A stretch of 4,503 nucleotides of DNA from a virus. The stretch lies in the UHGV virus genome UHGV-1976595, one strand, 5' to 3'. The position numbers were made by a program, and so were the translations under genes. Shown piece by piece: positions 36 through 4,503 of the stretch (its first letter is position 1; each line of letters opens with the position of its first letter). Under the pieces are notes generated by a model, which was given only the letters and a program-made list of their open reading frames with translations, was not told where the DNA came from and did not search any database.

Positions 36-155
36 ATGGCTCGTTCTCGCCGTCGTATGTCCAAGCGTTCTTCTCGTCGTTCGTTCCGTAAGTACGCAAA
101 GACGCATAAGCGAAACTTTAAAGCCCGTTCGATGCGTGGCGGTATTCGTCTTTGA
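36..155 (+). CDS. Small arginine/lysine-rich DNA-binding (packaging) protein, gokushovirus VP8 / microvirus J-like
   Basis: ATG at 36 preceded by AGGAGG (26-31) with a 4-nt spacer; 39 codons, stop TGA 153-155. Translation by hand: MARSRRRMSKRSSRRSFRKYAKTHKRNFKARSMRGGIRL, about 40 percent Arg/Lys, typical of the small DNA-condensing proteins of Microviridae. Too short to appear in the supplied ORF track. Family assignment is by composition, size and genome context only. Confidence 0.7.
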   Translation: MARSRRRMSKRSSRRSFRKYAKTHKRNFKARSMRGGIRL

Positions 156-166
156 TTGACAAAGTT

Positions 167-195
167 GATCGTAACGATCTACGATAATTATCGTA
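167..195. repeat. Two adjacent perfect palindromes built on ATCGTA half-sites: GATCGT-a-ACGATC (167-179) and TACGATAATTATCGTA (180-195)
   Basis: Read directly from the sequence. ATCGTA occurs at 168-173 and 190-195, and its reverse complement TACGAT at 180-185. Lies in the VP8-VP4 intergenic region just downstream of a perfect TTGACA hexamer (156-161). Function unknown; candidate operator, iteron or origin element. Confidence 0.6.
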
Positions 196-208
196 AGTCG
201 TTGTTTTT

Positions 209-236
209 GTTAAACTAAATATACATTATGCGCACC
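209..236 (-). other. dif-like Xer recombination site (candidate attP for XerC/XerD-mediated integration)
   Basis: The minus strand of 209-236 reads GGTGCGCATAA-TGTATA-TTTAGTTTAAC. Compared with E. coli dif (GGTGCGCATAA TGTATA TTATGTTAAAT, recalled from memory) the XerC arm matches 11/11, the central region 6/6 and the XerD arm 7/11. A conserved XerC arm with a degenerate XerD arm is the pattern described for phage and IMEX attachment sites. Confidence 0.6.
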
Positions 237-248
237 AAGGTGCGCATA
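227..248. repeat. Perfect 10-bp inverted repeat TATGCGCACC-aa-GGTGCGCATA (XerC-arm sequence duplicated in inverted orientation)
   Basis: Read directly: 227-236 is the exact reverse complement of 239-248, with a 2-nt spacer. The second copy (239-249, GGTGCGCATAC) matches the dif XerC arm at 10/11 positions in forward orientation. Confidence 0.85.
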
Positions 249-269
249 CGTGAATTATGGAGGTGTGTC

Positions 270-1887: not shown

Positions 1888-1924
1888 CCTGGCACAGTGC
1901 CCTACTTGATGTAACTGTGCCAGG
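1888..1924. repeat. Stem-loop: 11-bp perfect inverted repeat CCTGGCACAGT / ACTGTGCCAGG with a 15-nt loop
   Basis: Read directly: 1888-1898 is the exact reverse complement of 1914-1924. Located in the VP3-VP1 intergenic region, 9 nt after the VP3 stop. Not followed by a T-run on the + strand. Confidence 0.85.
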
Positions 1925-1936
1925 TGACACCGAAAC

Positions 1937-2024: not shown

Positions 2025-3704
2025 ATGAGTAAATTCGGTCGTAAAGTACCTAGTAATGCAAAAAGTCAGCATAATTTTTCAGTAATCCCGAGTGCTAATA
2101 TTCAGCGTTCGGTCTTTAACCGTAGTTCTGGTTATAAAACCACCTTTGACGCTGGTTATTTGATTCCCGTGTTTCTGGATGAGGCTTTGCCGGGTGATAC
2201 GTTCCACCTTAAAACGAGTGTTCTCGCGCGTCTTTCCACGCCCGTGGTTCCTTTCATGGATAATCTACGTCTGGATATTCAGTATTTTTCTGTACCTTAT
2301 CGCCTCGTCTGGGATAACTGGCAGAAATTCAACGGAGAACAGAAGAACCCTGGTGATTCTACGGATTATTTGATTCCGCAGATTACAGCCCCTGCTGGCG
2401 GTTTCCCTGTTGGCTCTCTTGCCGATTATTTTGGTGTTCCTACAGGTGTCGAAGGTATCAGCGTAAGCGCCCTGCCGTTCCGCGCTTATAACCTGATTTA
2501 TAACGAGTGGTATCGTGACGAAAACCTGATTAATTCCGCCCCGCTTCCGCTTGGCGATGAGACGGAAACAGGTCTCGCAAATTTCCCGCTGCGTAAGCGT
2601 GCCAAGCGTCATGATTACTTCACAAGTGCCCTTCCGTGGCCTCAGAAAGGCGAAGGTGTTGAGATTGGTTTAGGCGTTCCGCCGTCGTACTCGTTGAATT
2701 ATCCGGAATATCCGGATGGTTTAGCGTTCTTTACGCAGTCTTATGGCGCCGGCGGCCAGACTGTTGCTGGTACGGGCTATATTGCCCGTAGTGGTCTTGA
2801 CGCCGATACAGGTCTCTATTTGAGCGGTGGCCTTCAGAATGGTATTAACTGGCCTGAATCTCCTGTTCAGGGACGTTATGACGTTATTTCCGGTTTCCTT
2901 CCGGGCAAACCTCCGGTTACTTTGGAAAAGACAGGTGGTGAAGTTGTTGACAATCTCACGATTAACTCATTGCGTCAGGCGTTCCAGCTTCAGCGCCTGC
3001 TTGAGCGTGATGCTCGCGGTGGTACGCGATACATTGAGATTATTCGCAGTCATTTTGGCGTCATTTCTCCTGATGCCCGTGTTCAGCGTCCTGAGTATCT
3101 TGGCTCTGGTTCGTTCGATATAAATATCAATCCCGTTCTTCAGAACTCTGCGACTACCGATGCCAGCCCACAAGGTAACCTCGCAGCTTATGGTGTTTCC
3201 GGTGGTGTTAACCGTGGTTTTTCACATTCTTTTGTGGAGCACTGTTTTGTCATTGGTCTTGTATCTGTCCGTGCAGATTTGACCTATCAGCAAGGCATCC
3301 CGCGCATGTTCTCCCGTCAGACCCGCTTTGATTTCTACTGGCCTGCACTGGCCCACCTGGGCGAACAGGCTATTCTTAACAAGGAGATTTATGCGCAAGG
3401 CAACGCTAAAGATGATGAAGTCTTTGGCTATCAGGAACGTTACGCGGAGTACCGCTATCGTCCATCCCAGATTACTGGTAAATTACGTTCCACAGACCCG
3501 CAATCCCTCGATGTGTGGCATTTAGCCCAGCGGTTCGACTCTCTGCCCGCATTGAATCAGGAGTTCATCGAAGAGAATCCACCGATGAGTCGTGTTCTGG
3601 CCGTTCAGGACGAGCCTCAGTTCATTCTGGATGCATTCTTTGACCTGAAATGTGTGCGGCCTATGCCAGTTTATTCAGTACCCGGTCTTATTGACCATTT
3701 TTAA
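2025..3704 (+). CDS. Major capsid protein (gokushovirus VP1 / microvirus F-like)
   Basis: 559-aa ORF. ATG 2025 follows GAGGGGGG (2014-2021); stop TAA 3702-3704. The N-terminal region (...SVIPSANIQRSVFNRSSGYKTTFDAGYLIPVFLDEALPGDTF...) matches the conserved N-terminal signature of gokushovirus major capsid proteins as I recall it from Chlamydia phage and related VP1s. Its length fits a gokushovirus VP1 with the large surface insertion. Confidence 0.92.
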   Translation: MSKFGRKVPSNAKSQHNFSVIPSANIQRSVFNRSSGYKTTFDAGYLIPVFLDEALPGDTFHLKTSVLARLSTPVVPFMDNLRLDIQYFSVPYRLVWDNWQKFNGEQKNPGDSTDYLIPQITAPAGGFPVGSLADYFGVPTGVEGISVSALPFRAYNLIYNEWYRDENLINSAPLPLGDETETGLANFPLRKRAKRHDYFTSALPWPQKGEGVEIGLGVPPSYSLNYPEYPDGLAFFTQSYGAGGQTVAGTGYIARSGLDADTGLYLSGGLQNGINWPESPVQGRYDVISGFLPGKPPVTLEKTGGEVVDNLTINSLRQAFQLQRLLERDARGGTRYIEIIRSHFGVISPDARVQRPEYLGSGSFDININPVLQNSATTDASPQGNLAAYGVSGGVNRGFSHSFVEHCFVIGLVSVRADLTYQQGIPRMFSRQTRFDFYWPALAHLGEQAILNKEIYAQGNAKDDEVFGYQERYAEYRYRPSQITGKLRSTDPQSLDVWHLAQRFDSLPALNQEFIEENPPMSRVLAVQDEPQFILDAFFDLKCVRPMPVYSVPGLIDHF

Positions 3705-3717
3705 AACCCAACTCTTT

Positions 3718-3740
3718 GGCCTCTTCGGAGGCCTTTTTTT
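3718..3740 (+). terminator. Rho-independent terminator: GGCCTC-TTCG-GAGGCC followed by TTTTTTT
   Basis: 6-bp GC-rich stem (3718-3723 / 3728-3733), UUCG tetraloop (3724-3727) and a 7-T run (3734-3740), 14 nt after the VP1 stop and immediately before the VP2 ribosome-binding site. Confidence 0.75.
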
Positions 3741-3754
3741 CATGAGGTGAAATT

Positions 3755-4503
3755 ATGTGGGGAGCAATTGCAGGTGCTGTAGGTTCCGTTGCCGGTTCTC
3801 TTCTTGGTGCCCACTCTGCCCAGCAGAACGCCGCTCAGGCGAACAAGTTAACGATGGATTTGGCCAAAAACGGTATGCAGTACCGCGTACAGGATTTGCG
3901 AAAAGCAGGTCTTAACCCGATTCTGGCCGTTAATGGTTCCGGTGGTCTTGGTTCCGTCAGTTCTTCCGGTATTCAGCAGGCTGCCCCTGCCGATTATTCT
4001 GGTGCGGTTAACTCTGCCGTTGCCGCGTTCGACGCTCTGACGAAGCGTGAGCAGCAAAAGGTTGCCCGTGAAGGCATTGAGTCTCAGATTGCGTTACAAC
4101 GTAACCAGATTGCGAATAGCGCGGCTGATGTGCGTCTTAAAACGGCTCAGGCTGACCAGGCTATCCAGAGTGCCGATAACATGCGATCGCAGTCGAATCT
4201 GATTAATCAGCAGGTTTTGACCGAGGCTTCTCGTCGTGCCAATATTGAAGCACAGACAGGCCTCAGTTCTGCGCAGCGGATTAGAACACAGTATCAAACT
4301 GTTCAGGACAAGGTTCTGGCTGATTATTTGAATACACCGACTGGTGCTCAATCACTTAAGGTTAATTATGACTCTCAAGGGAAAGGGTTTGTCGGACAAG
4401 GTAATGCGATTGGTAGTTGGTTACGTCGTATTTCAGGTCTTGATGGCTTTGGCTTTCGCGATTCTAATAGTGCTAAGTCCGTAAACCAAAGGGGGGATTC
4501 TTC
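3755..4503 (+). CDS. DNA pilot / minor capsid protein (gokushovirus VP2-like), 3'-partial in this window
   Basis: ATG 3755 preceded by GAGGTGA (3744-3750). The frame stays open to the window end: 249 codons plus 2 nt by hand translation. It is absent from the supplied ORF track because it has no in-window stop. The N-terminus MWGAIAGAVGSVAGSLLGA is Gly/Ala-rich and hydrophobic, followed by ...RKAGLNPILA... and a long Gln/Ala-rich, probably helical, region, as in microvirus pilot proteins. If the genome is circular the frame continues into positions 1-34 and stops at TAA 32-34, giving 260 aa. Confidence 0.85.
   Translation, partial: MWGAIAGAVGSVAGSLLGAHSAQQNAAQANKLTMDLAKNGMQYRVQDLRKAGLNPILAVNGSGGLGSVSSSGIQQAAPADYSGAVNSAVAAFDALTKREQQKVAREGIESQIALQRNQIANSAADVRLKTAQADQAIQSADNMRSQSNLINQQVLTEASRRANIEAQTGLSSAQRIRTQYQTVQDKVLADYLNTPTGAQSLKVNYDSQGKGFVGQGNAIGSWLRRISGLDGFGFRDSNSAKSVNQRGDS

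What the first reader, a model, noticed from the sequence alone, without database searches (positions are those of the whole stretch)
209..249. dif-like Xer site with duplicated XerC arm: candidate attP of a temperate microvirus
The minus strand of 209-236 matches the 28-bp E. coli dif site in the XerC-binding arm (11/11) and central hexamer (6/6), while the XerD arm is degenerate (7/11). The XerC arm is repeated in inverted orientation 2 nt away (239-249, 10/11), forming a perfect 10-bp palindrome that could fold into a hairpin in the single-stranded genome. Microviridae are classically strictly lytic, but enterobacterial gokushovirus prophages flanked by dif motifs and integrated by host XerCD have been described, and filamentous ssDNA phages such as CTXphi use folded ssDNA attP sites. 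The exact XerC arm points to an enterobacterial host. This is the most biologically informative element in the window.
Basis: partly seen in the sequence, partly recalled or inferred. Interest (0 to 1): 0.8.

Follow-up and report, generated by a model that had tools for sequence, protein, structure and literature searches.

The report
Known dif-type attP of an enterogokushovirus
The motif is the attachment site that lets this small single-stranded DNA phage of Escherichia use the host XerC/XerD recombinases to insert next to the chromosomal dif site, a mechanism already shown experimentally for its close relative EC6098; the adjacent inverted copy of the XerC arm is real and unreported, but integration does not need it.

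Summary
The minus strand of 209-236 reads GGTGCGCATAA TGTATA TTTAGTTTAAC: XerC arm 11/11, spacer 6/6, XerD arm 7/11. Positions 239-249 (GGTGCGCATAC) repeat the XerC arm in inverted orientation.

The window is a complete circular Enterogokushovirus genome, 91.7% identical to Escherichia phage EC6098. The EC6098 GenBank record annotates the same 28 bp as 'dif-motif'. Kirchberger & Ochman 2020 showed that host xerC, host xerD and both phage arms are required for lysogeny.

A metagenome scaffold differing from the window by one base is this phage integrated at an E. coli dif locus. Its junctions show a crossover in the 6-bp spacer. Phages with the identical Rep protein occur both as free circles and as prophages at dif, in E. 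coli and in another Escherichia lineage (flank protein named E. coli/E. ruysiae/unclassified Escherichia). The attP reading is therefore supported, and it is already known.

The duplicated XerC arm is not part of the minimal attP. Many dif-integrated relatives lack it, and EC6098 deleted for the proper arm but keeping the inverted copy does not lysogenise. Both halves stay together at one prophage end, which excludes a CTX-like folded single-strand attP. The copy recurs at 2-, 8- and 9-nt spacings in separate lineages and has an invariant 8-bp core. This suggests a selected hairpin of unknown function.

The parts
209..236 (-). 28-bp dif-like attachment site (attP) of the phage
   Evidence: 24/28 match to E. 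coli dif. It corresponds to the 'dif-motif' misc_feature 1-28 of EC6098 MT185428. Prophage junctions show recombination inside it.
226..236 (-). XerC-binding arm GGTGCGCATAA
   Evidence: 11/11 here. Most relatives have AGTGCGCATAA. Deleting this arm in EC6098 abolishes lysogeny.
220..225 (-). Central region TGTATA, identical to dif; this is the crossover region
   Evidence: Both prophage junctions carry TATACA flanked by one host arm and one phage arm.
209..219 (-). Degenerate XerD-like arm TTTAGTTTAAC (7/11)
   Evidence: It stays with the phage at the VP8-side junction. It varies between lineages. It is required in EC6098 (delta-difD gives 0% lysogens).
239..249 (+). Inverted copy of the XerC arm, GGTGCGCATAC (10/11)
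   Evidence: The core 240-247 is invariant in 9 haplotypes while flanking non-coding positions vary. It is absent in many dif-integrated relatives.
227..248 (.). Palindrome; predicted hairpin with a 9-bp stem and 4-nt loop in single-stranded DNA or RNA
   Evidence: about -9.4 kcal/mol as DNA. Equivalent hairpins occur with 8- and 9-nt spacers in Salmonella prophages L117-120 and in the circular contig L209.
259..272 (+). Shine-Dalgarno GGAGG (260-264) and the true VP4 (Rep) start at ATG 270
   Evidence: GGAGGTGTGTCATGGC is conserved in all relatives. PGAP calls the 864-nt ORF. Spacer lengths of 30-58 nt break the frame with ATG 228.
36..155 (+). VP8, a small basic protein and the upstream neighbour of attP
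   Evidence: The exact protein occurs in 1348 blocks of the assembly collection.
156..210 (+). Promoter-like site (TTGACA-18-TACGAT, 156-185), then an AT-rich hairpin (173-202) and a T-run, immediately upstream of attP
   Evidence: These are consensus matches only. On integration this segment ends up at the opposite prophage end from VP4.

Best explanation
Positions 209-236 are the attP of a temperate enterogokushovirus. The double-stranded replicative form presents a dif mimic: a XerC arm and 6-bp central region identical to host dif, and a degenerate XerD arm. Host XerC/XerD bound to this site and to chromosomal dif exchange strands at the borders of the central region. This inserts the 4.5-kb genome beside dif.

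The result is a canonical dif (host XerD arm + phage XerC arm) next to VP4, and a weaker phage-type site (phage XerD-like arm + host XerC arm) after VP8. Both sites remain Xer substrates, so integration is reversible.

Shown here: the site itself, its homology to the annotated EC6098 dif-motif, the circular and integrated forms of the same phage, the junction structure, and the absence of any phage integrase or XafT-like factor. Taken from the literature on EC6098 (92% identical): the requirement for xerC, xerD and both arms, and the reversibility. Inferred: the order of strand exchange, and that the degenerate XerD arm damps FtsK/XerD-driven excision, as proposed for gonococcal islands.

The inverted XerC-arm copy (239-249) is an accessory that is dispensable for integration. 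It most likely forms a hairpin with the XerC arm in the single-stranded genome or in the VP4 leader. Its function is unknown.
For: Identity of the site. The window is a circular gokushovirus: VP2 reads across the window ends, the gene set is Rep/ORF5/scaffold/capsid F, and it is 91.7% identical to EC6098. EC6098 annotates the same 28 bp as dif-motif.

Integrated forms: all 7 complete E. coli genomes with a relative carry it between fimA and hipA, with host-D/phage-C and phage-D'/host-C junctions. L102 differs from the window by 1 base and is the integrated form with E. coli flanks. Phages with the identical Rep occur as free circles with attP (L103-L107) and as prophages in two Escherichia lineages.

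Published experiments: delta-xerC, delta-xerD, delta-difC, delta-difD and delta-difCD all give 0% lysogens against 17.7% for wild type; xerC complementation restores 14.6%; lysogenic colonies keep a fraction of excised cells. No integrase or DUF3653 is found in the six proteins. The idea that a degenerate XerD arm limits FtsK-dependent excision is stated for gonococcal islands in PMC6744903.
Against: No experiment exists for this particular genome. The XerD-like arm matches only 7/11, so XerD binding is assumed from the EC6098 delta-difD result rather than shown. In the published work the xerD knockout could not be complemented, so the role of XerD is less secure than that of XerC. The window could be an in-silico circularisation of a prophage, although free circular contigs of close relatives exist.
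Confidence: 0.93

Rival explanations
1. CTX-phi-like mechanism. The single-stranded genome folds through the inverted XerC arms into a hairpin attP(+), and this folded single-stranded form is what integrates.
For: The genome is packaged as single-stranded DNA, and the two XerC arms form a stable predicted hairpin.
Against: The hairpin makes only the XerC arm duplex. The central region and XerD-like arm (209-225) have no complementary partner in 250-266. In every prophage both halves of the palindrome stay adjacent at the VP4-side junction rather than being separated, and the other junction is a plain phage-D'/host-C site. Many dif-integrated lineages have no inverted copy. CTX integration is irreversible, whereas EC6098 excises continuously.
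Confidence: 0.03
2. The inverted copy is a second XerC-binding half-site in duplex DNA. It would modulate recombination (synapsis, directionality, excision rate) or repress VP4.
For: It matches the XerC arm 10/11. Its core is invariant while neighbours vary: 0 of 8 positions against 10 of 15 variable (my hypergeometric estimate is p about 0.003).
Against: The spacing to the true arm is 2, 3, 8 or 9 nt in different lineages, which does not fit a fixed protein-protein geometry. The position adjacent to the would-be cleavage site varies (C/T; L122 and L129 also change position 10). No XerD-like arm follows it, since 256-266 is the ribosome-binding site. It cannot replace the true arm (delta-difC gives 0%).
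Confidence: 0.12
3. The hairpin has a role unrelated to Xer, for example a recognition structure for complementary-strand synthesis on the incoming single strand, or a 5' stem-loop in the VP4 leader RNA. In this reading the conserved GC-rich XerC arm is simply reused as one half of the stem.
For: Variation falls in the predicted loop (236, 237, 239) and at the stem base (248, 249), while the 8-bp core is fixed. Hairpins of similar stability (-9.4 to -10.5 kcal/mol) are rebuilt with different loop lengths in Salmonella prophages and in L209. Lineages without the copy fold at only -2 to -3 kcal/mol. Hairpins in microvirus intergenic regions have been proposed as minus-strand origins.
Against: It is absent in many viable-looking relatives, including sister lineages, so it is not essential. 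No U-tract follows on the + strand, so it is not a terminator. No true covariation is possible, because the left arm is fixed by XerC recognition.
Confidence: 0.3
4. The inverted copy is a neutral by-product of template switching on the internal TGCGCA palindrome of the XerC arm during single-stranded DNA replication.
For: Its phylogenetic distribution is patchy, with apparent gains, losses and degenerate versions (L113a/b, L116b).
Against: An 8-mer appearing within about 30 nt by chance in three or more lineages is very unlikely (my estimate is about 5e-4 per lineage). The core is invariant across 9 haplotypes whose linker is half variable.
Confidence: 0.25

Closest known systems
dif-motif of Escherichia phage EC6098 and other enterogokushovirus prophages (Kirchberger & Ochman 2020, eLife, PMC7062461)
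   Same: Same genus and gene order, and the same position between VP8 and VP4. The XerD-like arm and spacer are identical in sequence, the XerC arm is the same, and the same inverted copy is present. Integration is at dif with canonical dif upstream and the phage-type site downstream.
   Different: The genome is 8% diverged. The window has G rather than A at the outer XerC-arm position. The paper does not use the words hairpin, inverted or stem.
TLC-phi attP (Vibrio cholerae IMEX)
   Same: The XerC arm and central region are near-identical to dif, the XerD arm is degenerate, and integration is reversible.
   Different: TLC-phi encodes XafT (DUF3653), which activates XerD. No such domain is found in the six proteins here.
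VGJ-phi attP (Vibrio cholerae IMEX)
   Same: A single dif-like site used as double-stranded DNA, with the prophage flanked by two Xer sites and able to excise.
   Different: The VGJ central region matches dif only on the XerC side. Here the central region matches 6/6.
CTX-phi attP(+) folded hairpin
   Same: A single-stranded DNA phage using host XerCD at dif, with inverted dif-like sequences that can pair.
   Different: CTX pairs two complete sites about 90 nt apart so that both arms are duplex, and integration is irreversible. Here only the XerC arm pairs, and the junctions rule out this route.
Gonococcal genetic island difGGI
   Same: [quoted passage not shown]
   Different: It is a large genomic island rather than a phage, and its integration factor is unknown.

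Membership tests
Enterogokushovirus dif-motif attP | Gokushovirus genome with gene order VP4-VP5-VP3-VP1-VP2-VP8 | tested here: met
   ORFs, Pfam domains, 91.7% identity to EC6098, VP2 closes the circle.
Enterogokushovirus dif-motif attP | 28-bp dif-like motif in the non-coding stretch between VP8 and VP4, with a conserved XerC arm and a variable XerD arm | tested here: met
Enterogokushovirus dif-motif attP | Prophage copies at host dif, with canonical dif on the VP4 side and the phage-type site on the VP8 side | tested here: met
   L102 is the integrated form with 1 mismatch to the window.
Enterogokushovirus dif-motif attP | No phage-encoded integrase | tested here: met
   Pfam scan of all six proteins at E<=1.
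Enterogokushovirus dif-motif attP | Lysogeny depends on host XerC/XerD and on both arms of the motif | not testable with these tools
   Shown for EC6098 only (Table 1 of PMC7062461).
CTX-type IMEX (folded single-strand attP) | Two inverted dif-like sites pair so that both the XerC and XerD arms are duplex around a central bubble | tested here: not met
   Only 227-248 pairs; 209-225 has no partner.
CTX-type IMEX (folded single-strand attP) | Integration masks the attP so that it is irreversible | tested here: not met
   Intact sites are present at both junctions, and both palindrome halves sit at one end. EC6098 excises.
TLC-type IMEX | attP with dif-like XerC arm and central region and a degenerate XerD arm | tested here: met
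   11/11, 6/6 and 7/11. Definition.
TLC-type IMEX | Encodes a XafT-like (DUF3653) XerD activator | tested here: not met
   No DUF3653 hit at E<=1 in any of the six proteins. A non-homologous activator cannot be excluded.
VGJ-type IMEX | A single double-stranded attP, with the prophage flanked by two compatible sites | tested here: met
VGJ-type IMEX | Central-region homology restricted to the XerC side, with XerC-only catalysis | tested here: not met
   The central region is 6/6 identical to dif. Which recombinase catalyses the exchange is not testable here.

The most novel reading that the evidence does not exclude
The inverted XerC-arm copy may be a selected element that dif-integrating gokushoviruses have built or kept in at least three architectures: 2-nt spacer in Escherichia phages, 8-nt in Salmonella prophages, and 9-nt in an uncultured circular genome. 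It would form a hairpin whose stem is a duplex XerC-binding arm in the single-stranded genome. That could recruit XerC to incoming DNA, or couple Xer recombination to replication or to VP4 expression. The papers I could search do not describe such an accessory layer of attP function.
Probability: 0.25. Interest if true: 0.5.

Novelty: already known. Interest (0 to 1): 0.25.

Why it matters
The attP confirms that this genome belongs to the small group of microviruses that lysogenise by hijacking the host chromosome-dimer resolution system. This is useful for annotation and for assigning the host (Escherichia), but it adds nothing new in principle. The one fresh point is the accessory palindrome built on the XerC arm, which recurs in separate lineages. 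If it is functional, it would be a cheap and easily tested handle on how these phages tune integration, excision or Rep expression using only six genes.

Tried and rejected
(1) The hairpin as rolling-circle origin: rejected. A different stem-loop at 1888-1924 carries the invariant loop CTACTTGATGTAAC, which resembles the phiX174 nick site as I remember it. Its stem covaries across gokushoviruses with only about 45% Rep identity.

(2) ATG 228 as the VP4 start, as annotated in EC6098: rejected. There is no Shine-Dalgarno sequence before it, the spacer lengths of 30-58 nt break the frame, and PGAP uses ATG 270.

(3) A second full dif-like site at 239-266: rejected. Its 'XerD arm' is the ribosome-binding site, and it mismatches dif at 14 of 28 positions.

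(4) A formal covariation test of the hairpin is uninformative, because the left arm is fixed by XerC recognition. I used per-site variability instead.

(5) An intrinsic terminator on the + strand: there is no T-run. The only terminator-like call is on the minus strand, where no genes lie.

(6) Rfam gave nothing relevant.

(7) The genome contigs pattern hits L092/L093 were chance matches.

(8) A scan of IMG/VR for XerC-core palindromes gave 107 stretches with a match (80 listed). Among those checked, all appeared to be chance except EC6098 and L209.

(9) Seventy-eight distant gokushovirus loci showed no dif-like site with an inverted copy.

(10) The promoter-like site at 156-185 being split from VP4 by integration: I kept this only as an idea, because the site is not conserved in all lineages.

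Full report
WHAT THE WINDOW IS

The 4503-base window is a complete circular gokushovirus genome. All genes are on the + strand.
- VP8: 36-155.
- VP4/Rep: 270-1133 (PF23343).
- VP5: 1120-1389.
- VP3 scaffold: 1370-1879.
- VP1 capsid: 2025-3704.
- VP2: starts at 3755 and reads across the window end to a stop at position 34, which shows the sequence is circular.

It is 91.7% identical to Escherichia phage EC6098, genus Enterogokushovirus. It is 87-90% identical to prophages in 7 of 5426 complete E. coli genomes.

THE OBSERVATION

The minus strand of 209-236 reads GGTGCGCATAA TGTATA TTTAGTTTAAC. Against E. coli dif this is XerC arm 11/11, spacer 6/6 and XerD arm 7/11.
- The XerC arm occurs twice, at 226-236(-) exactly and at 239-249(+) with one mismatch. 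Only 0.09 hits are expected by chance.
- The 10-nt perfect inverted repeat 227-236/239-248 is listed.
- No shuffle of the window came closer than 8 mismatches to dif, against 4 observed.

Physically, a 2-nt loop cannot close. Folding gives a 9-bp stem and 4-nt loop of about -9.4 kcal/mol as DNA.

WHAT IT IS

The EC6098 GenBank record annotates the homologous 28 bp as 'dif-motif'. Kirchberger & Ochman 2020 (PMC7062461) reported the following:
- EC6098 integrates downstream of the host dif.
- Lysogeny drops from 17.7% to 0% in delta-xerC and delta-xerD hosts and for phages lacking the XerC arm, the XerD arm or both.
- Only the xerC defect was complemented.
- Lysogenic colonies continuously contain excised cells.

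I checked the same logic for this genome.
- The seven E. coli prophages lie between a fimA-like gene and hipA.
- The junction next to VP4 is ATTTAACATAA TATACA TTATGCGCACT, that is host XerD arm, spacer, phage XerC arm.
- The junction after VP8 is phage XerD-like arm, TATACA, then host XerC arm TTATGCGCACC and host flank. This is what a crossover in the central region predicts.
- The exact Rep protein of the window is listed in 30 blocks of the assembly collection.
- Among these are free circular contigs of about 4.5 kb that carry attP (L103-L107).
- Also among them are prophages in the E. coli dif locus (L098, L101, L102) and prophages at dif in another Escherichia lineage (L097, L099, L100). 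The flank protein of the latter is named E. coli, E. ruysiae or unclassified Escherichia.
- L102 differs from the window by a single base over 4.5 kb. It is the integrated, circularly permuted form with E. coli flanks.
- None of the six proteins has an integrase or a XafT-like DUF3653 domain.

HOW IT MOST LIKELY WORKS

The double-stranded replicative form offers a dif mimic. Host XerC/XerD synapse it with dif and exchange strands at the borders of the identical 6-bp central region. This regenerates a canonical dif beside VP4 and leaves a weaker phage-type site after VP8. Both sites survive, so the reaction is reversible, as published for EC6098.

In architecture (XerC arm and centre like dif, XerD arm degenerate) the site resembles TLC-phi attP, but without its XafT activator. 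In outcome (a single double-stranded site, two sites retained, excision possible) it resembles VGJ-phi, but with full rather than partial central-region identity. A degenerate XerD arm is said to protect gonococcal islands from FtsK-dependent excision. I infer the same role here. The order of strand exchange and any dependence on FtsK remain unknown.

THE DUPLICATED XerC ARM

The duplicated arm is the only part not already described. The eLife paper never uses 'hairpin', 'inverted' or 'stem'.

Where it is present. Across 26 distinct XerC-arm-plus-spacer sequences, the inverted copy with a 2-nt spacer is found in:
- the window;
- EC6098;
- most E. coli prophages;
- the 84%-Rep relative L109.

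Where it is absent. It is missing from other lineages that are just as clearly integrated at dif:
- L003, L007, L095, L126 and L130, which have a 56-nt spacer;
- L008, L094 and L128;
- Microvirus mar4;
- a Citrobacter prophage, L110;
- L111/112, L114/115, L116a and L121;
- EC6163, judging from its primer.

The published delta-difC construct removes only the 11-bp proper arm and keeps the inverted copy, yet gives 0% lysogens. The copy is therefore neither necessary nor sufficient for integration.

A CTX-like folded single-strand attP is excluded for three reasons. Only the XerC arm becomes duplex. Positions 209-225 have no partner in 250-266. Both halves of the palindrome stay together at the VP4-side junction in every prophage.

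The copy nevertheless looks maintained.
- In nine haplotypes of the 2-nt-spacer group, the core 240-247 never varies. By contrast, 10 of the 15 other unconstrained positions do vary, and they fall in the predicted loop (236, 237, 239), at the stem base (248, 249) and in the linker.
- An inverted GGTGCGCA also follows the XerC arm at an 8-nt spacing in Salmonella prophages L117-120.
- It follows at a 9-nt spacing in the circular contig L209, whose Rep is 66% identical and which has its own dif-like attP.
- L116b has it with a 1-base deletion, and L113a/b carry degenerate versions.
- These hairpins all fold at about -10 kcal/mol, against -2 to -3 for lineages lacking the copy.
- On a Rep tree the trait is patchy.

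Variable spacing argues for a hairpin rather than a fixed second XerC site. What the hairpin does cannot be decided here. The candidates are a signal for complementary-strand synthesis, a structure in the VP4 leader RNA, XerC recruitment, or nothing at all.

OTHER POINTS

The C at 236, which gives the 11/11 arm, is shared with L102. The more distant mar4 and L121 also have C at the equivalent position. The other relatives have T (AGTGCGCATAA), which equals the host dif arm of the other Escherichia lineage and of the Salmonella and Citrobacter hosts. That position also lies in the hairpin loop.

The ORF starting at ATG 228 inside the XerC arm, which EC6098 annotates as the vp4 start, is not the real start. 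GGAGG lies 5 nt before ATG 270 in all relatives. Spacer lengths of 30-58 nt break the frame. PGAP calls the 864-nt ORF.

VERDICT

The mechanism is already known from a close relative. The inverted XerC-arm hairpin is a modest, unreported and testable side feature.

Noticed in passing
window 1888-1931: A perfect 11-bp stem (CCTGGCACAGT/ACTGTGCCAGG) encloses a loop containing CTACTTGATGTAAC. From memory, this resembles the phiX174 origin nick site (CAACTTG^ATATTAATAAC). The 14-mer is exact and on the + strand in 55 fetched loci, including gokushoviruses with only about 45% Rep identity. The stem covaries (GCACAG/CTGTGC, GACCAG/CTGGTC, CACCAG/CTGGTG) and is followed by a conserved tgacacc. It is probably the rolling-circle (+) origin. 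A full-text search found no paper combining Gokushovirinae, origin of replication and stem-loop.
   Followed up: partly
window 228-269 (and EC6098 record 21-62): GenBank annotates EC6098 vp4 from the ATG inside the XerC arm. Comparative spacer lengths, the conserved Shine-Dalgarno sequence and PGAP calls all place the real start at the ATG equivalent to window 270. The 14-codon extension is an annotation artefact.
   Followed up: yes
window 156-210: A promoter-like site (TTGACA-18-TACGAT, 10/12) and an AT-rich hairpin with a T-run lie just upstream of attP. Integration moves this segment to the far end of the prophage, away from VP4, which might silence Rep in lysogens. The site is not conserved in all lineages.
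   Followed up: partly
L113 1105-9751 and L116 5421-11861: Two gokushovirus prophages sit in tandem at one dif locus, separated by hybrid dif-like sites. In L116 the two prophages are different (Rep 286 and 283 aa).
   Followed up: no
L008/L009 (mar4) attP: In this sub-lineage the phage site reads GGTGCGCATAA TGTAAAG TTATGTCAAA. That implies a 7-nt central region with a near-canonical XerD arm, a different solution from the window's 6-nt centre with a degenerate arm.
   Followed up: no
window 3718-3740: A strong intrinsic-terminator-like hairpin (GGCCTCTTCGGAGGCC followed by T7) lies immediately after the capsid gene VP1 and before VP2.
   Followed up: no
window 36-155: The exact 39-aa VP8 sequence is listed in 1348 blocks of the public assembly collection. 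Enterogokushoviruses therefore appear far more widespread than the fewer than 100 prophages reported in 2020.
   Followed up: no
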